Of a stretch of 44,804 nucleotides of DNA, positions 11,820 through 40,201 are shown one piece after another (positions within the stretch are counted from its first letter, which is position 1; each line of letters begins with the position of its first letter). Source of the stretch: Escherichia phage JLBYU60; sequence record NC_073052.1, one strand, 5' to 3'. A program made the position numbers and the translations under genes. Below the pieces are notes generated by a model that saw only the letters and a program-made list of their open reading frames with translations, was not told the origin of the DNA and made no database searches.

Positions 11820-11954
11820 TGAAGCGGGACAGGCGGGACGTCCCGTTTTGTCCCGCCTCTGTAAAACTGCATATCTACTCACTTCCACTGCATAAACTCA
11901 AAACGGGACAAGCGGGACGTCCCGTTTTGTCACGCCCTGTAAATATGCATACCT
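11819..11954. repeat. Tandem ~45-bp sub-repeats each containing the 12-bp palindrome CGGGACGTCCCG
   Basis: Two similar units (about 11824-11875 and 11896-11947); palindromes at 11834-11845 and 11913-11924; each unit also forms GGCGGGAC...GTCCCGCC inverted repeats. Confidence 0.7.
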
Positions 11955-12140
11955 ATGCAGATTTCGTGCATAAACCAAACGGGACAGAAAGCGGGACAAA
12001 CACGAGGCGGGACAAAACGGGACAGCACCCCGTCCCCGCCAGTGCTGCCGCGGTTTTCAGCCGATCGGGACAGCGGGACAGCACCCCAGTCTTTCAGACT
12101 AGACGGGGGTCAATGGCCCCCCTCGTCTGAGACTGAATAA
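11955..12140. repeat. Dispersed direct repeat, copy A (CGGGACA iterons plus long imperfect hairpin)
   Basis: About 186 bp, near-identical at both ends to 40016-40201 (shared ...tgcataaaccaaacgggacagaaagcgggacaaaca... and ...gggacagcgggacagcaccccagtctttcagactagacggggg...cccccctcgtctgagactgaataa); lies between chaperone and tape measure genes. Confidence 0.8.
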
Positions 12141-22363: not shown

Positions 22364-24049
22364 ATGGCAGCGGGTACACTATCCGTAACGAATAACAGCA
22401 AGGCGGTTGTCGGGGTAGGCACGACGTTTACCGCGTTTAAAGCTGGCGACTTCTTAACGCTGGTGGTAGGACAAGTCCCCTACACCGTGGCAATCGCGTC
22501 CATTGAAAGCGCAACCGCGCTTACGCTGGTGCTGCCGTTCGACGGCCCAACGGCAACCGGCCTCGCGTGGGATGGCGTTAAGCGCGATACCATGTCGCTG
22601 GCAACGATGGGCGTTACCGTACAGGCTCAAAAAGCATTGCGCTTGATGATTGCAGATGAAAACAACTGGCGTGCAATCTTCGGCGACGCTGAAGAAATCA
22701 CGGTCACGCTGCCGAACGGGCAGGTGATGCAGGGTATGTCATGGGGCTACCTGTCGCAGTTGATGAAACAGATCGACCCAGTGGAAATGCGCGACCTGCA
22801 ACAACAAGCCGCCGCATCGGAAGCAGCCGCGCAAGGATTTCGCAATGAGGCAGAAGGCTTCAAAAACGACACCAACACCATCAAGACGCAGACCAACCAG
22901 ATTAAGACGGACACACAGGCTATCCACGACGCCACCAATACCATCAAGACGCAGACCAACCAGATTAAGACGGATACGCAGGCCATCAAGGACCAGACCA
23001 ACCAAATTAAGACGGATACCGGAGTTATTCGCGACCAGGCCAACACCGCGAAGACGGACGCGCAAGCCGCCCGCGATGCCGCGCAGGTATACAGGGACGA
23101 GGCCGAACAATTCAAAAATGAGGTTGACCCGTCTCAATACGCTAAGGTAAGTAACAACCTCACCGACCTCACCGACAAAACCGCGGCACGGCAGACTCTC
23201 AACGCAATCGGCGTCGGGGATTATGGCATCGGAGGCGGCGCACCTGGCGGAAGTTGGGACACAGCAGATGATAGCACCCTGATCGCTACAAACACAGGGT
23301 CCCCACTAGGTGACGTCTCCGTAGCGGGTGTGCATGTTAAGTTTGCGCAAAACTATGCTGTACAGTTCGCGGCGCGTCAAAGCCGATTTTTCTGGCGAAC
23401 TAAAGAGAATGGGGCGCTACAGAATTGGTGCGAAGCGGTGAAGCCGGGGGACTACGGACTAGGGATTGAAAACTCAGTCCCCCCGCCGAATACGCAGGCT
23501 TGCTTTTTCTCGCAGTCGATCGGAACACCGACTTGGGCACCTGCAAACGGCGCAGGATTTCAATCGGCCTACTCGCCCTCTCGTGTCGCACAGCTTATGG
23601 TCGGCGCGTTGCCAGCGCTCTACTATCGTTGGAACACCTCCGGCAACGCGCAAGTCTCCGCTTCGACGGCGCCGTGGTCACGGGTGCAAGATGCCGGTAC
23701 GTCTGACGCCCGTGTGAAGGATATTAAGGGAAATTTAAATGTGGAGGCGGCGCTGGATAACATCAACCGCCTTGAGTTTAAGTTATTCCGGTATACGTTT
23801 GACGAACCGGAGCGATCTACGCGACGCGGAATCATTGCACAGCAAGCGGCAACGGTTGACCGGGAATATGTGCACGACCACGAAGTTCCGGGGATGATGA
23901 CGTTAGACTTAAACCCGCTTGTCGCGGATTGCCTGGCGGCTATTAAAGCGTTAAGAGCGCGTGACGAGGCGAACAAGGCCGAGATTGCAGAACTGAAAGC
24001 TGCCGTAGCGGATTTGAAAGCCGCGGTCGCGGCGCTGACTAAAGCATAA
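22364..24049 (+). CDS. Side tail fibre with C-terminal intramolecular chaperone (peptidase S74-like) domain
   Basis: 561 aa; tandem 21-aa repeats (NTIKTQTNQIKTDTQAI...); C-terminal region DARVKDIKG...LEFKLFRYTFD...GIIAQQAATVD typical of auto-cleaving chaperone domains of phage fibres/endosialidases; terminator downstream. Confidence 0.75.
   Translation: MAAGTLSVTNNSKAVVGVGTTFTAFKAGDFLTLVVGQVPYTVAIASIESATALTLVLPFDGPTATGLAWDGVKRDTMSLATMGVTVQAQKALRLMIADENNWRAIFGDAEEITVTLPNGQVMQGMSWGYLSQLMKQIDPVEMRDLQQQAAASEAAAQGFRNEAEGFKNDTNTIKTQTNQIKTDTQAIHDATNTIKTQTNQIKTDTQAIKDQTNQIKTDTGVIRDQANTAKTDAQAARDAAQVYRDEAEQFKNEVDPSQYAKVSNNLTDLTDKTAARQTLNAIGVGDYGIGGGAPGGSWDTADDSTLIATNTGSPLGDVSVAGVHVKFAQNYAVQFAARQSRFFWRTKENGALQNWCEAVKPGDYGLGIENSVPPPNTQACFFSQSIGTPTWAPANGAGFQSAYSPSRVAQLMVGALPALYYRWNTSGNAQVSASTAPWSRVQDAGTSDARVKDIKGNLNVEAALDNINRLEFKLFRYTFDEPERSTRRGIIAQQAATVDREYVHDHEVPGMMTLDLNPLVADCLAAIKALRARDEANKAEIAELKAAVADLKAAVAALTKA
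22877..23020 (+). repeat. In-frame tandem 63-bp repeats within tail fibre gene
   Basis: About 2.3 copies of accatcaagacgcagaccaaccagattaagacgga... (21-aa unit TIKTQTNQIKTDTQAI). Confidence 0.8.
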
Positions 24050-30816: not shown

Positions 30817-33108
30817 CTACTTGCGGTAGCGATACATGCAATCGCCCTCTGCGGCGAGTGGGAAGCCTTTCGCCCAAATAGGTAGGTCGCACATCAGCGC
30901 GCAAAGCTCCTCGGTCGTGTAGTCGTCAGTGTCCGGCACTTCTGTGATCAATTCGTCGTGTACGGACAGGACGATCTCATACCCCGCGGCTTCAACGCCA
31001 GGCATGGACCATGCGAGAATATCGCGGCACAACGCCTGTACGATGTTCTCCGTCAGTTTGCCGCCGTAGGTGTACTGGAAACCCCACTGGCGCGTAGTCT
31101 GATTCTCGCCCTGGTATTTGATGCGGGTGCTGGTGCGCTTCTTGCCGGTGTCTTCGTCGATCTCGGTCGTGACAGATAGCGCGATGCCGGGATAGCTCAT
31201 GATGCGCCCTGAAGGCAACTCAATTTTAAGCCACCACCCCGCGGCGTTCGGGTCGTCGCGCTCCTCGTCAAAGGTTGGGTCGTGCTTCGCCTTCGTACGG
31301 ACAATCTTGAGCGCTTTTCTACCGTCCGGGCGAACGTTCGCACCCGCCCAGTATGCTTTGCCCGGATTGCGGATTGCACACAACACCGCGTCCTCAAGCT
31401 CGGCCCAAAAGGCTACCGTCATCGGGTGAGACTCACGCCACATACGTTTGATCGCGTCACACGTCAACCACACGTTTTTTGGCAGTATGTAAGTTGGGCG
31501 CTCGTCTTTCTTGCCAGGCTTCGGCGGGCGCTTGGCTTCGTTAATGCGGGCATACTCATAACCACGTTTCGCCGCGGCCCAAATATGATCGGGGAATGTG
31601 CCCTTCATGACGTCCGCCATCGCATACAGGTCGAGGCCCAGGTTTTTAGCAAACTGCAGGAACGCTGCAACACCGCCACCATAGCCCAACCCCAATTCGC
31701 ACGCCTTACCAATCTGGCGCAAGTCTTTGCGGTTGGCTTTGATGTATTCCGGGTCGAGGCCAAACATCTTACCGGCAGTCTCACAATAGATATCACGATC
31801 GGCCTTAAACACCATTAGCGCGGTTTTCTCGCCAGCGATCCAGGCAAGCCCGCGACCTTCCACGTTAGAAAAGTCAGCTACAACAAACTTCTTGCCCTTA
31901 GCCGGAATAATGCACCCGCGAACGGTCGAGGCCGTTAACTTCGATATGTCATACGCCCAGTGTGCAGTCCCGCGTAACAGGGAGTTGATGCCGTTGGTGA
32001 GCATGTGCGACCGCACCCAATAAGAAACGTCGCTCTCGCCATCACGGCGTTTAATCTTCCCTTCATGGTCGTCGCTGTACTCGCCACGCGCCAGGTTTTG
32101 AGGTTGAAAGCCTTTACCGGCCCAGCGTAGCGTGCGCTTTGCCCCACCATACTGAAGACAACCACGGCGGCGACCATCTGCGGATAAGCCGTTAACTAGC
32201 GGATTGTACTTAGTCGATGCCGTTGATGACGCACCGAGGCGCATTTCGATAAGCGCTTTGCCTTCGTCGGGGAAGTCCGGGTCTTCAAGCAGGTCATTCA
32301 GCGTGGATTTCTGCGCGTTGTGGATTGTGAACGCTGGCGCAATATCACGCAGGATTGGCAGGAAGTCATTGCCGGTCAGCTTACCGCCAAATCGCTCCCA
32401 GGCTTCCTCCTTCAATTCTTCCTTATGCGCCTGCACCGCTTTGATCGCGGCGTTCGCCAGGTCAACGTCCACATAGAAGCCGCGGTCGTTGATCAACTGG
32501 TCAATAAGCAGTATCTCGTCTTCCTTCGGAGTATTACCCCAGTCCGGTATGCGCCAGTAGACCTCACGCATCGCGATAATATCCAGCGCGGCATATCGCA
32601 GAAATTTGGCCCATTCTTCAGGGTGAGTCTCGCGCGTGTAGCGGCGTATTTTGTAGGTCTTAGGGGTAGGCTTACAGAATCGTTTGATCAGCGCCTTGCC
32701 TGCCTTATCCTTCGCGTGCTCTGCGTCAACGCCCAACACCTGACACTGCATATCGAGGCTACCCGGCAGCGCGTGGCGAAAGGCCATAATCATTGTGTCT
32801 TCGATCTGGCTTACCGGCAGGTCAATACCCCACTTCTCGCGGATAACCAGGCGGTCAAACAGGAGGCCGTTAGCCATCACTATTTTTGCTTTCTTGCGGG
32901 AAACATGGCGGAGCGCCTTGCGCAGTTCACGCGGCATTGTGGGGGATTCAGTGCAATCCCATGTCTGCACGCGGCCCTCGTCGATGGCGTATGTGCAAAT
33001 CATAATCTCGGTGGTTGGGTGCTCTGCGTAGGCGTACGCCCCAACCTTCTTTAGGTCCACCCCGCTAAATGTCTCGGTGTCGAGAAACAGACGTTCGAAG
33101 TCTTTCAT
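30817..33108 (-). CDS. DNA polymerase, family A, with 3'-5' proofreading exonuclease domain
   Basis: 763 aa; Exo I-like LFLDTETFSG; Pol A motif A DFSNVEGRGLAWIAGE, motif B RQIGKACELGLGYGGG, motif C VLSVHDELI. Confidence 0.9.
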   Translation of the reverse strand: MKDFERLFLDTETFSGVDLKKVGAYAYAEHPTTEIMICTYAIDEGRVQTWDCTESPTMPRELRKALRHVSRKKAKIVMANGLLFDRLVIREKWGIDLPVSQIEDTMIMAFRHALPGSLDMQCQVLGVDAEHAKDKAGKALIKRFCKPTPKTYKIRRYTRETHPEEWAKFLRYAALDIIAMREVYWRIPDWGNTPKEDEILLIDQLINDRGFYVDVDLANAAIKAVQAHKEELKEEAWERFGGKLTGNDFLPILRDIAPAFTIHNAQKSTLNDLLEDPDFPDEGKALIEMRLGASSTASTKYNPLVNGLSADGRRRGCLQYGGAKRTLRWAGKGFQPQNLARGEYSDDHEGKIKRRDGESDVSYWVRSHMLTNGINSLLRGTAHWAYDISKLTASTVRGCIIPAKGKKFVVADFSNVEGRGLAWIAGEKTALMVFKADRDIYCETAGKMFGLDPEYIKANRKDLRQIGKACELGLGYGGGVAAFLQFAKNLGLDLYAMADVMKGTFPDHIWAAAKRGYEYARINEAKRPPKPGKKDERPTYILPKNVWLTCDAIKRMWRESHPMTVAFWAELEDAVLCAIRNPGKAYWAGANVRPDGRKALKIVRTKAKHDPTFDEERDDPNAAGWWLKIELPSGRIMSYPGIALSVTTEIDEDTGKKRTSTRIKYQGENQTTRQWGFQYTYGGKLTENIVQALCRDILAWSMPGVEAAGYEIVLSVHDELITEVPDTDDYTTEELCALMCDLPIWAKGFPLAAEGDCMYRYRK

Positions 33109-33275
33109 TGCTTTATCCTCACTACGGCGTCAGCGCTGCCGATCATGGAGAAGATGCCGTCTGACAGGGCAATCTCTTCGCCGTTGTTGCGAATCTCGGC
33201 AACTGTGAAATATTCCCCCAGTAGCTTAGACCATACCCGCATTCCGACTTTTACTTCGCTGGCTTTAATACGCAT
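33105..33275 (-). CDS. Small hypothetical protein translationally coupled to DNA polymerase
   Basis: 56-aa ORF (MRIKASEVKVGMRVWSKLLGEYFTV...) not in the six-frame track; its TGA overlaps the polymerase ATG (ATGA). Confidence 0.4.
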   Translation of the reverse strand: MRIKASEVKVGMRVWSKLLGEYFTVAEIRNNGEEIALSDGIFSMIGSADAVVRIKQ

Positions 33276-33333
33276 TTTTCATTGTCCTATTAAAAAGCCC
33301 GCATTAAGCGGGCTTGAATAGTGGGCTTTGCCC

Positions 33334-34113
33334 TTAACGGCGGCGACGTTTACGTGGCGCTTCGTCTTCGTCGTCGTCCTCATCTTCGTCATCGCGTGGC
33401 TTACGCCGTTTGCGAGGTTTTTCATCTTCCTCATCGTCGTCGTCATCGCGGCGCTTGGATTTCTTGGACTTGCGCGGCTTGTCATCTTCATCATCGTCAT
33501 CACGACGTTTTGACTTTTTGGACTTGCGCGGTGCTTCGTCTTCGTCGTTGTCCAGGTCTTCATCGGAGCAAGACGACCCGCCACCTCCGAAGGCTTCGCC
33601 GTCTTCACGGAATCGCAGACCCAGCAAGCCAGCCCCGAGACCCTTGCCGTTGGTATTGTTCCACGCCCAAATATCCAGGGACACATTGCAATAACAACCG
33701 GAGTAGATCTCCTGGCCTTCGATCTCGTCGCCTTCTACGGTCAGACCTTGTTCCGTCTGCTTCTCGCCAAGTGACGTTTGAATGATCGGCTGTTTGAACG
33801 ATTTGGCGTTGATGTACAACATGCCTTCGAATTCTTCGGTTACTTCGTCGCGCTCGTCACCGTCGCGAACTGCGCATTCCTTAGAATCCTGGGCGTAGTG
33901 GCGGTCCATCCACTTATCGGCATTCTTCTCGGATTTCAGCTTATCGGTGAGCACTGCGCGCGCTGCCGCTTCCACTTTGTCCACCTGCGGATCTTCTTTA
34001 TCCAGAAGAATAACGGCACGGTATGCCGGTTTTTGACCATCCTGTTTAGGGGTATCACGTTCCCAAATTTTAAGGAAGCATACGCGCACATTTTTCAGGT
34101 TGACTTTAGCCAT
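33334..34113 (-). CDS. Putative ssDNA-binding protein (DUF2815/gp2.5-like) with charged C-terminal repeats
   Basis: 259 aa from ATG 34113 (MAKVNLKNVRV) with RBS GAGGAA; adjacent to a DUF2800-like exonuclease; C-terminus has tandem K/R-rich and D/E-rich blocks (DEAPRKSKKSKRRDDDDEDDKPRKSKKSKRRDDDDDEED...). Confidence 0.45.
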   Translation of the reverse strand: MAKVNLKNVRVCFLKIWERDTPKQDGQKPAYRAVILLDKEDPQVDKVEAAARAVLTDKLKSEKNADKWMDRHYAQDSKECAVRDGDERDEVTEEFEGMLYINAKSFKQPIIQTSLGEKQTEQGLTVEGDEIEGQEIYSGCYCNVSLDIWAWNNTNGKGLGAGLLGLRFREDGEAFGGGGSSCSDEDLDNDEDEAPRKSKKSKRRDDDDEDDKPRKSKKSKRRDDDDDEEDEKPRKRRKPRDDEDEDDDEDEAPRKRRRR

Positions 34114-34203
34114 TTTCCAATTCCTCATTTTCACATGTATCGGGGTTATTGGAGGCCACCCCGTTCGGCTTGGTTGCCAATTTACTTGGTTGCGCTTAAG
34201 CGG

Positions 34204-34446
34204 TCAAGCATTTTCATTAAAAAGATTTCTGGTCACGTAGTTGGTAGCGTTCTCGATCCAGCTTAACGGCGGGCGGTCGATGTTCTTCTCCACCCAATCG
34301 ACGGCAACTTCGCTATAGCCGTCATCCAGCCAGCGGGTCGGATGGCGAATCATCCACGCCACCATTAACACGCCTTGCACGCAATGCAGGATAAAGCCCA
34401 GCGCTCCGAGCAAAAACATCAATAAGATTGCGAATACTTTATTCAT
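34204..34446 (-). CDS. Small membrane protein
   Basis: 80 aa with two predicted TM helices (FAILLMFLLGALGFILHCV; VLMVAWMI); stop overlaps region of TTGGTTGC motifs. Confidence 0.5.
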   Translation of the reverse strand: MNKVFAILLMFLLGALGFILHCVQGVLMVAWMIRHPTRWLDDGYSEVAVDWVEKNIDRPPLSWIENATNYVTRNLFNENA

Positions 34447-36057: not shown

Positions 36058-36309
36058 TTATTTTGTCTCCCAGCGGTCAATTGTTTTTGCTTCGGATGCA
36101 ACTGCGAAGCGAACATATTCCAGATTGGAATCAGCCCAAATATAAAAGTCTGGATTAATAAAGGTGGTGCGCTTAATTTGCGCGGGAGTATTGCGGCGTT
36201 TATCTATTACGGCAACGCGTGACTGAAAGTTGCCGATGCGTTCGAATAGCCAATAATAAGGGCGTTGGTCGCGTGAATCCACCGCCTCGATTAGCGTGAA
36301 GCGTGCCAT
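36058..36309 (-). CDS. Hypothetical protein
   Basis: 83 aa with RBS GAGGA; preceded by a terminator-like hairpin. Confidence 0.5.
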   Translation of the reverse strand: MARFTLIEAVDSRDQRPYYWLFERIGNFQSRVAVIDKRRNTPAQIKRTTFINPDFYIWADSNLEYVRFAVASEAKTIDRWETK

Positions 36310-36321
36310 TGTCTCGTCCTC

Positions 36322-36350
36322 TAAAAAGAGGCCCGCAGATTAGCAGGCCG
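36322..36350 (-). terminator. Terminator-like hairpin on minus strand
   Basis: Minus strand reads GGCCTGC-taatct-GCGGGCC (one mismatch) then TCTTTTT; downstream of stop at 36358. Confidence 0.45.
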
Positions 36351-36357
36351 GAATACA

Positions 36358-36873
36358 TTAATCTTCCAGTTCGAAATAGGTTTCGACGATTTCTTTTAGC
36401 TCTGTGTGGAAGTCTTCGACGTCGTCATCTTCCAGCTTGGCGATTGATTTGATCTCGAACGATTCCAGCAGGTCGTCGAATTCGTCGTTCGCATCGTCGT
36501 CGTCACCACCGGCAATAATCGCGGCATACTGTTTGATCTCGTCGCGCATCTCTGCCAGCGGATCGGCATCTTTCTTGCCTTTGCCTTTTGCCGGTGCTTT
36601 TTTAGACTTAGCCGGTTTTTCATCTTCGGCATCGTCGTCGTCATCTTCTACGACTTCTTTTTTGGCCTTACCCTTCGCCGGTGCTTTTTTAGCTTTAGCC
36701 GGTTTTTCGTCTTCGGCGTCATCGTCGCCATCTTCGACAACTTCTTTTTTGGCCTTAGACGGCTTCTTGTCTTCCTGCTTACCAACGGCAGCGCCAACGG
36801 TTTCATAATGCTTTGCAATGGTCTCCAGTGCTACTACGCCGCGAGTGATCAGGTTTACGATTTGCTCAAACAT
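36358..36873 (-). CDS. Hypothetical protein with tandem lysine-rich/acidic repeats
   Basis: 171 aa from ATG 36873 (MFEQIVNL) with RBS GGAGATA; central duplicated ~31-aa unit (KPAKAKKAPAKGKAKKEVVEDDDDDAEDE) and acidic C-terminus; the six-frame ORF extension to 37053 lacks a credible start. Confidence 0.55.
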   Translation of the reverse strand: MFEQIVNLITRGVVALETIAKHYETVGAAVGKQEDKKPSKAKKEVVEDGDDDAEDEKPAKAKKAPAKGKAKKEVVEDDDDDAEDEKPAKSKKAPAKGKGKKDADPLAEMRDEIKQYAAIIAGGDDDDANDEFDDLLESFEIKSIAKLEDDDVEDFHTELKEIVETYFELED

Positions 36874-37110
36874 GGTATATCTCCGATTGGTTAAGTTTAG
36901 GTGTCGGCAGTTAACTTCGTCGGTGGCCTTAACATATTGCCAGGTTACGCGTTCTCCCGTTCGGGTAGTGGACCTGGTTATATAATCACGGTTGGGAATC
37001 CTGACACTTCGATCCGGCCCCTGCGGTGCCCCTCTCCAGTTTGCGTCCTGCATCCTGTCGACGGAGTGAATGATAGATTGGTTGCAGGATGGGTGTCAAC
37101 AACTAATTTC

Positions 37111-37143
37111 AAAAAAAAGCGCCGAAGCAAAATGCGACGGCGC
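37111..37143 (-). terminator. Terminator-like hairpin on minus strand in large intergenic region
   Basis: Minus strand GCGCCG...CGGCGC stem (large loop) followed by TTTTTTTT. Confidence 0.4.
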
Positions 37144-37214
37144 TAACCAATAAGAGACAATGAGACGGAAAGTATTATTACACGCGTGCGCGCCCGTTTC
37201 AATATCCAAAGGAT

Positions 37215-37274: not shown

Positions 37275-37604
37275 ATGAATATCAAAGAAGCAATTGAAGT
37301 GTTATCTAATGCTATCCGCGGCGAGGCGGGTAAATCCTGGTATTACACAAATGCGGTGGATACTCTGTTATTTGAAGTGTCCAGGTTATCGCGTGCTGAG
37401 AAGGAGCTTACCGCCAAACTGGAATTACTGAATGGAACGGCAGCAAGCAAGCTGCAAAAACACAATGAAGAAATGGAAGAATACAAAAAGCAGGTTATCC
37501 GTTTGCGCGCCGAGGGCAAATCTTGGGCGATGATTGCCGAGTTGACCGGAATTAATCAGAGCACAGTGCGCTCCTGGGTACGCAATAATAAAACTTCTAA
37601 GTAA
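37275..37604 (+). CDS. HTH DNA-binding protein (putative early transcriptional regulator)
   Basis: 109 aa with RBS AGGAGA; C-terminal HTH-like segment SWAMIAELTGINQSTVRSWVRNN; first + strand gene after a 400-bp divergent intergenic region with sigma70-like promoter. Confidence 0.6.
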   Translation: MNIKEAIEVLSNAIRGEAGKSWYYTNAVDTLLFEVSRLSRAEKELTAKLELLNGTAASKLQKHNEEMEEYKKQVIRLRAEGKSWAMIAELTGINQSTVRSWVRNNKTSK

Positions 37605-40015: not shown

Positions 40016-40201
40016 ATGCAGTTTTACTGCATAAACCAAACGGGACAGAAAGCGGGACAAACAAGGGGCGGGACAAAGCGGGACAGCACCCCCGTCCCGC
40101 CCCGGATGGCGCGGCCTGGAGAGGAGCGGGACAGCGGGACAGCACCCCAGTCTTTCAGACTAGACGGGGGTCAGCGGCCCCCCTCGTCTGAGACTGAATA
40201 A
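40016..40201. repeat. Dispersed direct repeat, copy B (CGGGACA iterons plus long imperfect hairpin)
   Basis: Same orientation and length as copy A, 28,061 bp downstream; central ~45 bp diverged; located in the non-coding hub after the primase-helicase gene. Confidence 0.8.

What the first reader, a model, noticed from the sequence alone, without database searches (positions are those of the whole stretch)
36358..36873. Protein with duplicated lysine-rich/poly-acidic units; similar charged repeats at the C-terminus of the SSB-like protein
The 171-aa protein contains two copies of about 31 aa (KPAKAKKAPAKGKAKKEVVEDDDDDAEDE) followed by an acidic tail. The SSB-like protein (33334-34113) ends in tandem blocks alternating KSKKSKRR with poly-D/E. 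Alternating polybasic and polyacidic tracts are characteristic of DNA mimics and nucleoid- or histone-like proteins, so these may act as host nucleoid disruptors, anti-restriction DNA mimics or condensate-forming replication factors. The coding DNA is correspondingly repetitive (33340-33560, 36540-36760).
Basis: seen in the sequence. Interest (0 to 1): 0.5.

Follow-up and report, generated by a model that had tools for sequence, protein, structure and literature searches.

The report
Variable charged linker in phage replication protein
The charged repeats are real but are a dispensable, length-variable flexible spacer inside an abundant, still uncharacterised phage protein that always sits at the head of the phage's DNA replication/recombination genes, and the phage's single-strand DNA-binding protein carries a comparable variable charged tail.

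Summary
The window is a complete Dhillonvirus (HK578-like E. coli siphophage) genome. The 171-aa protein (36358-36873, minus strand) has 2.2 copies of a 29-aa (87-nt) Lys/Ala/Pro-plus-Asp/Glu unit. The Enc34/gp2.5-type SSB (33334-34113) has a tail alternating PRKSKKSKRR with poly-D/E. No other reading frame in the genome has such tracts.

The repeats are not the functional core. In 100 intact relatives the linker runs from 18 to 82 aa with 0, 1 or 2 acidic blocks, always in frame. The N-terminal heptad helix and the acidic C-terminal three-helix bundle (pLDDT >90) are nearly invariant.

The protein belongs to a large uncharacterised family: 2,146 clusters in the representative search, several PHROGs, no Pfam. 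In every context I examined it is the first gene of the operon small gene - DUF2800 nuclease - Enc34-type SSB - PolA. Where upstream sequence is held, that operon is divergent from a primase-helicase or a small DNA-binding regulator.

Published proteomics of a relative (EE09) detected its ortholog and the SSB among only four phage proteins seen in infected cells.

No homology to Ocr, gp5.9, Gam, gp5.5 or Red-beta was detected. Function is untested. My best guess is an abundant, DNA-tethered adaptor of the replication/recombination machinery.

The parts
36358..36873 (-). Gene for the 171-aa protein (stop codon included). PHROG 3127, function unknown. First gene of the leftward replication/recombination operon.
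   Evidence: ORF and SD. PHROG match to residues 1-171, E 5.8e-54. Short start conserved and long start not. Ortholog EE09_56 detected by MS in infected cells (PMC10673088).
36787..36873 (-). N-terminal helix, residues 1-29 (MFEQIVNLITRGVVALETIAKHYETVGAA), with a heptad-like hydrophobic pattern. Presumed oligomerisation or partner-binding helix.
   Evidence: Near-invariant in Dhillonviruses. Helix 2-27 with pLDDT about 90 using the 130-sequence alignment. Equivalent 'MSLEQKIEELTxAVxxLT' helix in distant relatives.
36562..36786 (-). Disordered polyampholyte linker, residues 30-104: Lys/Ala/Pro blocks alternating with Asp/Glu blocks, net charge about +1.
   Evidence: pLDDT 40-55. FCR 0.61, kappa-type score 0.44 versus 0.14 for shuffles. 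Length 18-82 aa in 100 relatives.
36564..36737 (.). Two full 87-nt tandem DNA repeats (83% identical), equal to the 29-aa protein unit. TRF extends the array to 36569-36757 (2.2 copies).
   Evidence: Relatives differ by exactly one unit (171 versus 142 aa, e.g. P0027, P0031).
36361..36561 (-). Conserved acidic C-terminal domain, residues 105-171. Predicted three-helix bundle (H105-122, H126-138, H149-167); the C-terminal segment scored (residues 102-171) is net -22, pI about 4.
37070..37099 (-). Sigma-70 promoter-like site TTGACA-18-TATCAT (11/12), about 190 nt upstream of the start codon.
   Evidence: sequence. The leader shows no Rfam match and no excess structure, z +1.5.
36330..36349 (-). 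Intrinsic-terminator-like hairpin (GGCCTGC...GCGGGCC + TCTTTTT) immediately after the stop codon.
   Evidence: Analogous GC hairpin plus T-run after the homolog in Salmonella phage St162 and Serratia phage Tsm2.
33334..34113 (-). Enc34/gp2.5-type SSB, 259 aa. OB-fold core about residues 1-190; mixed-charge tail residues 186-259.
   Evidence: Pfam PF10991 E 2.8e-31. PHROG 112. PDB DUF2815 structures 4KLK, 4JG2, 5ODJ. SD GAGGA upstream of the ATG at 34113. Ortholog EE09_61 detected by MS (PMC10673088).
33337..33558 (-). SSB C-terminal tail: four basic blocks (PRKSKKSKRR x2, PRKRRKPR, PRKRRRR) alternating with poly-D/E. Ends basic. Contains a 54-nt x 2.2 repeat (33426-33543).
   Evidence: Relatives have 2-4 basic blocks and tails of 45-82 aa.
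33292..33315 (-). Canonical intrinsic terminator after the SSB gene (AAGCCCGC-TTAAT-GCGGGCTT + TTT).
   Evidence: Sequence. Fold -24.6 kcal/mol, z -4.7.

Best explanation
Shown. The repeats encode an intrinsically disordered, charge-segregated spacer. It arose and keeps changing by in-frame gain and loss of an 87-nt unit, and its length and acidic blocks are dispensable. It joins two strongly conserved modules: an N-terminal heptad helix and a very acidic three-helix bundle. A lysine-rich patch is always retained next to the bundle.

The protein has its own promoter-like site and terminator hairpin, and its ortholog was detected by mass spectrometry in cells infected with a relative. In every context examined it heads the operon small gene - DUF2800 PD-(D/E)XK nuclease - gp2.5/Enc34-type SSB - PolA. 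This holds from Dhillonviruses to relatives at about 25-30% identity.

Inferred. The protein is a stoichiometric accessory or adaptor of the T7-type replication/recombination machinery.
- The N-terminal helix makes it oligomeric or docks it to a partner.
- The lysine-rich part of the linker tethers it non-specifically to DNA. In distant relatives this part contains PAKK-type or AT-hook-like KRGRP motifs.
- The acidic bundle and tail bind basic surfaces of replication proteins electrostatically, as the acidic tails of T7 gp2.5 and gp4 do. Candidate surfaces are PolA or the Arg/Lys blocks and PRKRRRR end of the SSB tail.
- The result would be a higher local concentration of those proteins on phage DNA.

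The SSB tail is an expanded, repeat-generated version of the gp2.5-type tail, with basic islands inserted between acidic runs. These probably tune self-inhibition, DNA affinity and SSB-partner contacts.
For: Repeat and charge pattern.

Spacer variability. The linker is 18-82 aa. Block patterns are +-+-+ in 56 representatives, +-+ in 38 and + only in 3. It is always in frame, while the N and C modules are near-invariant. One-unit variants differ by exactly 29 aa.

Structure. Helix, disordered segment, then a three-helix bundle with pLDDT >90. The N-helix rises to about 90 with a deep alignment.

Family breadth. 2,146 50%-identity cluster representatives at E<=1e-3, with the same tripartite architecture.

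Synteny. The order is identical in every locus examined. The loci are the window, L004-L007, L023-L026, St162, Tsm2, L031, L032 and L033/L034.

Expression signals. Promoter-like site and terminator hairpin flank the gene. A terminator also follows the homolog in St162 and Tsm2.

Expression. EE09_56 and EE09_61 are two of only four phage proteins detected in infected cells (PMC10673088).

DNA-binding motifs. KRGR[PK] occurs in 23 of 159 distant members and PAKK/SPKK-like motifs in 60 of 159.

SSB tails. They alternate acid and base in all relatives examined. Nearly all Dhillonvirus and Guernseyvirinae tails end basic; St162 ends acidic. T7 gp2.5 already has a small KPR-containing basic island.

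Role of acidic tails in gp2.5 and Enc34: PMC5686142 and PMC13402713.
Against: There is no experimental or homology-based link to any replication function. Synteny is the only functional evidence, and first genes of early operons are also a typical location for host-takeover genes.

Fold searches give only generic helical bundles.

The window protein's linker contains no Arg and no AT-hook core, so DNA binding rests on composition.

Linker length and SSB tail length are not significantly correlated across 17 genomes: rho 0.47, p 0.06, including one adapter-truncated tail and without correction for phylogeny.

Distant relatives pair acidic-tailed homologs with SSBs that end in acidic/aromatic residues (DIDF, DELF). 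A simple interaction between the acidic domain and a basic SSB end therefore cannot be general.
Confidence: 0.35

Rival explanations
1. Host-factor inhibitor acting by DNA mimicry. The very acidic helical C-terminal domain occupies the DNA-binding site of a host protein. The most plausible target is RecBCD, as with lambda Gam or T7 gp5.9, which also lie just upstream of the phage exonuclease gene. H-NS, HU or a defence nuclease are other candidates. The repeats would be only a spacer.
For: The C-terminal segment is net -22 over 70 aa, pI about 4. The gene lies upstream of the exonuclease/annealing-SSB pair in every context, analogous to gam-bet-exo and 5.9-6 (annotation). It is the first gene after its own promoter-like site and sits at the head of the leftward replication/recombination operon. 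No other RecBCD inhibitor is recognisable in this stretch: the 'Gam' label on the neighbouring 109-aa protein is only an HTH match.
Against: No profile similarity to Gam, gp5.9, Ocr or gp5.5, all below 1% probability, and none among the fold-search hits. A conserved lysine-rich patch and AT-hook-like motifs are not expected in a DNA mimic. Dhillonviruses are described as sensitive to type I/II restriction next to the resistant Queuovirinae (PMC8594841), which argues against Ocr-like activity. High abundance is not needed to titrate RecBCD.
Confidence: 0.2
2. Scaffold of a phase-separated replication/recombination compartment. The oligomerising helix, blocky polyampholyte linker and folded domain, together with the blocky SSB tail, would drive complex coacervation on phage DNA. 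Linker copy number would tune material properties.
For: High charge segregation in both proteins. They are the only two such proteins in the genome, and both lie in the replication operon. Both are abundant (PMC10673088). The helix-IDR-helical-domain layout resembles known bacterial condensate scaffolds, from my own knowledge (PopZ; E. coli SSB linker).
Against: Purely architectural. Variants with an 18-27-aa linker and no acidic block occur on apparently complete genomes. Blocky polyampholyte character is therefore not required.
Confidence: 0.12
3. Histone- or HMGA/H1-like architectural DNA-binding protein. It would coat or bend phage or host DNA through the Lys/Ala/Pro repeats, with the acidic region acting as an autoinhibitory tail.
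For: K/A/P-rich blocks resemble H1/HU-extension 'PAKKA' tails. AT-hook-like KRGRP motifs plus acidic tails occur in distant members. The protein is abundant (PMC10673088).
Against: The whole protein is net -22 and the linker is about neutral. The basic region can shrink to about 5 lysines (P0098). The most conserved parts are not basic.
Confidence: 0.08
4. The 87-nt DNA repeats act in cis, as iterons or as an R-loop-prone purine-rich origin element next to the primase-helicase gene, like the lambda origin inside the linker-coding part of gene O. The protein-level repeats would be a by-product.
For: Tandem repeats inside a gene at the divergent junction of the replication module, downstream of a promoter-like site.
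Against: Copy number falls to one or zero in relatives. All variants preserve the reading frame and the amino-acid pattern. The SSB gene has an unrelated repeat of the same kind. The clustered GCGGGAC arrays elsewhere are better iteron candidates.
Confidence: 0.03

Closest known systems
T7 gp2.5 / Enc34 ORF6 single-stranded DNA-binding proteins (Pfam PF10991, DUF2815) and their acidic C-terminal tails
   Same: The window SSB has the same OB-fold core. It has a disordered, acid-rich C-terminal tail attached after a GGGG-type hinge. T7 gp2.5 even has a small basic island (SAKASKPR) between acidic runs. [quoted passage not shown]
   Different: The tail is 74 aa, against about 26-29 in T7 and Enc34. 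It contains four Arg/Lys blocks produced by a 54-nt tandem repeat. It ends in PRKRRRR instead of an acidic stretch with a terminal aromatic residue. The number of blocks varies from 2 to 4 among relatives.
DNA-mimic inhibitors: T7 Ocr (gp0.3), T7 gp5.9, lambda Gam
   Same: A small, helical, very acidic module. The gene lies upstream of the phage exonuclease, as for gam and 5.9.
   Different: No sequence-profile similarity. Fold searches do not return them. The protein carries a lysine-rich DNA-binding-type segment. Dhillonviruses are restriction-sensitive compared with the resistant Queuovirinae (PMC8594841).
HMGA / CarD-type AT-hook proteins and H1/HU-extension lysine-rich tails (from my own knowledge of these families)
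   Same: Disordered basic K/A/P or KRGRP motifs combined with an acidic region. Members of the wider family carry canonical-looking KRGRPKK motifs.
   Different: The window protein has no Arg and no GRP core. Net charge is strongly negative. It has a conserved N-terminal helix and a folded acidic bundle that those proteins lack.
Lambda Red-beta C-terminal domain (three-helix bundle that binds lambda Exo and the SSB tail; PDB 6M9K, 8TFU)
PHROG 3127 and related PHROGs 7721, 408, 5053, 18562, 3709 (all 'unknown function'); UniProt '13.88 kDa late protein' of Salmonella phage MB78; Gp46 of Edwardsiella phage eiAU
   Same: True homologs with the same tripartite architecture and the same genomic position.
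   Different: None has an assigned function. The linker sequence and length differ in every lineage.

Membership tests
PHROG 3127 (uncharacterised phage protein family) | Full-length match to the family profile | tested here: met
   E 5.8e-54, residues 1-171 to profile positions 1-178 of 178.
gp2.5/Enc34-type SSB (PF10991) | OB-fold core matching the family profile and solved DUF2815 structures | tested here: met
   PF10991 E 2.8e-31, 109 bits against a cut-off of 26. PDB 4KLK, 4JG2, 5ODJ at E 1e-10 to 1e-12.
gp2.5/Enc34-type SSB (PF10991) | Uniformly acidic C-terminal tail ending in acidic/aromatic residues | tested here: not met
   The tail has 28 basic and 33 acidic residues in alternating blocks and ends PRKRRRR. 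T7 ends ...EADEDGDF. More distant relatives end DIDF or DELF.
gp2.5/Enc34-type SSB (PF10991) | Preferential binding to single-stranded DNA | not testable with these tools
   Shown for Enc34 ORF6 (PMC5686142). SECphi4 SSB activity is reported in 10.1101/2022.08.27.505566.
Ocr-type anti-restriction DNA mimic | Sequence/profile homology to T7 gp0.3 | tested here: not met
   hhalign probability 0.5%.
Ocr-type anti-restriction DNA mimic | Phage resistance to type I restriction | not tested
   Literature only. Dhillonviruses are described as sensitive to type I/II RM compared with the resistant Queuovirinae (PMC8594841).
RecBCD inhibitors (lambda Gam, T7 gp5.9) | Sequence/profile homology | tested here: not met
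   hhalign probability 0.1% for Gam and 0.7% for gp5.9.
RecBCD inhibitors (lambda Gam, T7 gp5.9) | Binding and inhibition of RecBCD | not testable with these tools
   Needs genetics or biochemistry.
DNA mimics in general | Compact, strongly acidic surface | tested here: inconclusive
   The C-terminal segment is net -22, pI about 4, with a confident three-helix model. Charge spacing on the surface could not be inspected because no coordinates were available.
AT-hook (HMGA-like) proteins | R-G-R-P core flanked by basic residues | tested here: not met
   No Arg in the window linker. The motif is present in 23 of 159 distant family members.
Histone H1 / lysine-rich nucleoid proteins | Net basic protein with K/A/P-rich repeats | tested here: not met
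   K/A/P blocks are present, but the linker is net +1 and the protein net -22.
Lambda Red-beta C-terminal domain | Homology or specific fold match | tested here: not met
Copy-number-polymorphic coding tandem repeat | In-frame unit-length differences among close relatives | tested here: met
   171 versus 142 aa is exactly one 29-aa unit. Linkers span 18-82 aa and SSB tails 45-82 aa.

The most novel reading that the evidence does not exclude
The 171-aa protein would define a widespread, unrecognised class of phage 'replisome organiser'. Through its oligomerising helix, DNA-binding lysine-rich disordered region and acidic bundle, it would co-assemble with the block-charged tail of the gp2.5-type SSB into an electrostatically driven replication/recombination compartment on phage DNA. 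Repeat copy number in both proteins would tune that assembly. This would be a membrane-less replication factory in small siphophages.
Probability: 0.1. Interest if true: 0.7.

Novelty: new variant of a known kind. Interest (0 to 1): 0.4.

Why it matters
The T7-type module of DUF2800 nuclease, gp2.5/Enc34 SSB and PolA is found in many siphophages. These include therapy-relevant coliphages and Salmonella phages. Its SSB and polymerase are already known triggers of bacterial defences: Retron-Eco8, Hachiman and Borvo.

An abundant, strictly syntenic and completely uncharacterised protein at the head of this module is an obvious gap. The family has at least 2,146 sequence clusters. If it organises or tethers the replication machinery, or disarms a host nuclease, it would explain a conserved part of these phages' early programme.

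Natural copy-number variants of 0, 1 and 2 units offer a ready-made experimental series. They could be used to ask what charged disordered linkers do in phage replication proteins.

If the repeats are only a neutral spacer, the finding is an ordinary example of low-complexity length polymorphism.

Tried and rejected
1. Pfam and NCBIfam scans of the protein and of distant relatives gave only sub-threshold, composition-driven hits: BUD22, TonB, DnaX tau, RNase E.

2. A PDB sequence-profile search gave nothing better than ribosomal protein S20 at E 0.08.

4. hhalign against Ocr, gp5.9, Gam, Red-beta and gp5.5 was negative in every case.

5. I checked whether the gene is Ksap1, the KpAvs2 trigger of SECphi18. 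It is not: Ksap1 is a 74-aa protein encoded elsewhere (PMC11564622). I also checked the RAZR triggers; that trigger is the portal protein (PMC13017515).

6. The 231-aa ORF start was rejected.

7. A structured RNA or riboswitch in the 190-nt leader was rejected: no Rfam hit and z +1.5.

8. The correlation between linker length and SSB tail length was not significant.

9. tblastn with 'MSLEQ'-type distant members against GenBank phages gave no match. That branch is known only from metagenomes.

10. Literature searches for MB78 '13.88 kDa late protein', DUF2800/DUF2815 neighbours and Dhillonvirus early genes or transcriptomes found no functional data on this gene.

Full report
**Context.** The 44.8-kb window is a complete genome of a Dhillonvirus, an HK578-like E. 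coli siphophage. A 5-kb stretch around the finding matches 178 GenBank phage records, mostly at 90-96% identity. Relatives annotate the target gene as 'hypothetical protein', and in one record as 'prohead core protein'.

**Observation.**
- The ORF at 36358-36873 (minus strand, 171 aa) is preceded by GGAG 7 nt upstream of its ATG.
- The alternative 231-aa start used in many records is not conserved. In several Dhillonviruses, and in every more distant relative, the upstream frame is closed by a stop codon. The GGAG-ATG is always present. PHROG 3127 aligns to residues 1-171 end to end.
- TRF reports an 87-nt unit x 2.2 copies at 36569-36757. The repeat finder reports two full copies, 83% identical.
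- In the protein this is one full 29-aa unit, KPAKAKKAPAKGKAKKEVVEDDDDDAEDE, flanked by two partial units.
- The SSB-like gene (33334-34113) ends in four Arg/Lys blocks alternating with poly-Asp/Glu. It includes a 54-nt x 2.2 repeat.
- Charge segregation is far above shuffled controls in both tracts.
- No other reading frame of the genome contains such mixed-charge windows.
- The two tracts share pattern and composition, not ancestry. The linker is K/A/P/G-rich with no Arg. The SSB tail is R/K/S-rich.

**Anatomy of the 171-aa protein.**
- AlphaFold2 predicts a helix at residues 2-27, a disordered segment at about 30-104, and a three-helix bundle at 105-167 with pLDDT >90. With a 130-sequence alignment the N-terminal helix also reaches pLDDT of about 90.
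- The 'acidic tail' is thus a folded domain. The C-terminal segment (residues 102-171) is net -22, the linker is about neutral, and the protein as a whole is net -22.
- I examined 100 intact cluster representatives of close relatives. The two terminal modules are nearly invariant. The linker ranges from 18 to 82 aa, with two (56), one (38) or no (3) acidic blocks, always in frame.
- Variants of 142 aa differ from the window protein by exactly one 29-aa unit.
- Variants of 122 and 124 aa lack acidic blocks and occur on complete ~44-45 kb genomes.
- A lysine-rich patch next to the C-domain is always kept.
- The repeated units are therefore a dispensable spacer that evolves quickly by unit gain and loss.

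**Family and neighbourhood.**
- There is no Pfam or NCBIfam family.
- A profile search of 1.84 billion cluster representatives found 2,146 proteins at E<=1e-3. Nearly all are 110-180 aa and share one layout. This is an N-terminal 'MSLEQKIEELTxAVxxLT'-type heptad helix, a charged Pro/Ala/Lys-plus-Glu linker, a C-terminal helical domain and often an acidic end.
- They fall into several PHROGs, all 'unknown function'.
- In 23 of 159 distant members the linker carries AT-hook-like KRGR[PK] motifs. In 60 of 159 it carries PAKK/SPKK-like motifs.
- In every genomic context examined, the homolog is the first gene of an operon that continues small gene - DUF2800 PD-(D/E)XK nuclease - Enc34-type SSB - PolA. 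Where upstream sequence is held, the operon is divergent from a primase-helicase or a small HTH/RHH regulator. The contexts were the window, three metagenomic lineages at 25-45% identity, IMG/VR contigs, and GenBank Kagunavirus St162 and Serratia phage Tsm2.
- The gene is flanked by a promoter-like site (TTGACA-18-TATCAT) and a terminator hairpin. A terminator also follows the homolog in St162 and Tsm2.
- The SSB gene likewise ends in a strong terminator.

**Expression.** A proteomics study of Dhillonvirus vB_EcoS-EE09 detected only four phage proteins in infected cells at 25 min: CDS29, CDS40, CDS56 and CDS61 (PMC10673088). In the GenBank record, EE09_56 is the ortholog of the target and EE09_61 is the SSB. 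This assumes the paper's CDS numbers equal the locus tags, which its description of a neighbouring 'transposase' supports. Both proteins are therefore expressed and readily detectable. The other, assembly artefact, is removed by the many independent assemblies.

**The SSB.**
- The core matches PF10991 and solved DUF2815 structures, including Enc34 ORF6.
- Canonical gp2.5-type tails are acidic and end in an aromatic residue (T7...EADEDGDF). Enc34 has 16 acidic residues among its last 29 (PMC5686142).
- Among the SSB tails read from 21 Dhillonvirus and Guernseyvirinae loci, the tail alternates acidic and basic blocks, with 2-4 basic blocks and 45-82 aa. Nearly all end in PRKRRRR-like sequences; St162 is the exception.
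- More distant relatives have acid-basic-acid tails ending DIDF or DELF.
- T7 gp2.5 itself has a small KPR-containing basic island.
- The Dhillonvirus tail is therefore best read as a repeat-expanded variant of the same design.

**Comparison with known systems.**
- hhalign of the family profile against Ocr, gp5.9, Gam, gp5.5 and Red-beta gives probabilities below 1%.
- BFVD returns only uncharacterised phage proteins.
- The BASEL study describes Dhillonviruses as sensitive to type I and II restriction compared with the resistant Queuovirinae (PMC8594841). This argues against an Ocr-like role.
- The gene is not Ksap1 (PMC11564622).

**Interpretation.**
- Shown: the repeats are a variable disordered spacer in an abundant protein with two conserved modules, strictly linked to the T7-type replication/recombination operon.
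- Inferred, confidence about 0.35: the protein is a DNA-tethered, probably oligomeric adaptor. Its acidic bundle contacts basic surfaces of the replication/recombination proteins.
- Rivals: a Gam/gp5.9-like host-nuclease inhibitor (0.2), a condensate scaffold (0.12), an architectural DNA-binding protein (0.08), and cis-acting DNA repeats (0.03).
- None can be settled without experiments or complex prediction.

**Verdict.** The repeats themselves are ordinary low-complexity length polymorphism. The more interesting result is the conserved, abundant, uncharacterised protein family they sit in, and the atypical mixed-charge, basic-ended SSB tail. Interest 0.4.

Noticed in passing
window 11824-12079 and 40052-40140: The heptamer GCGGGAC occurs 18 times against 9.5 expected, and 0 of 100 shuffles reach 18. 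Copies cluster in two regions with no long ORF calls on either strand, 7 and 6 copies. These may be operator or iteron arrays.
   Followed up: partly
window 37110-37202 (minus strand): A second promoter-like site (TTGAAA-17-AATAAT with TG, 37202..37174) is followed about 25 nt later by a stable hairpin plus U8 (37144..37110; -16.2 kcal/mol, z -2.9). This delimits a unit of about 55 nt just upstream of the target's own promoter. It could be a small RNA or an attenuated leader. Relatives annotate tiny ORFs here.
   Followed up: partly
window 37275-37604 (plus strand): The 109-aa protein next to the primase-helicase is labelled 'transposase' or 'DNA recombination nuclease inhibitor gamma' in GenBank relatives. 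It matches only HTH_23 / Sigma70_r4_2 domains, so both names look like misannotations of a small HTH regulator.
   Followed up: partly
window 36874-37053: Many GenBank Dhillonvirus records start the target gene 60 codons too early (229-232 aa products). The extension is closed by stop codons in several relatives and is outside the PHROG profile.
   Followed up: yes
window 33292-33315 and 34179-34207 (minus strand): The SSB gene has its own promoter-like site and a strong intrinsic terminator (-24.6 kcal/mol, z -4.7). This fits published Retron-Eco8 escape mutations in the 'SSB promoter', and the MS detection of the SSB in infected cells.
   Followed up: partly
window 33105-33275 (minus strand): The 56-aa ORF between the SSB and PolA probably corresponds to the 'SECphi4 56aa protein of unknown function' that Stokar-Avihail et al. 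cloned in their defence-escape study. I matched it by size only. I did not establish which defence system it relates to.
   Followed up: no
window 36058-36309 (minus strand): The 83-aa protein immediately downstream (PHROG 4965, unknown function) has detectable homologs in four of the related loci searched (L024, L025, St162, Tsm2). A 71-94-aa gene sits at or near the same position in the more distant contexts. It may act together with the target.
   Followed up: partly
L013 (IMG/VR contig IMGVR_UViG_3300045988_003101), end of contig: The contig ends inside the SSB tail in a sequence translating to AVSYTHLRAHET. I recognise this as read-through into a Nextera sequencing adapter, so that SSB looks truncated artificially.
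   Followed up: no
window 22866-23002 and 11825-11986: Two further tandem repeats: 63 nt x 2.2 inside the 561-aa ORF at 22364-24049, and 79 nt x 2.1 in the GCGGGAC-rich region with no long ORF on either strand.
   Followed up: no
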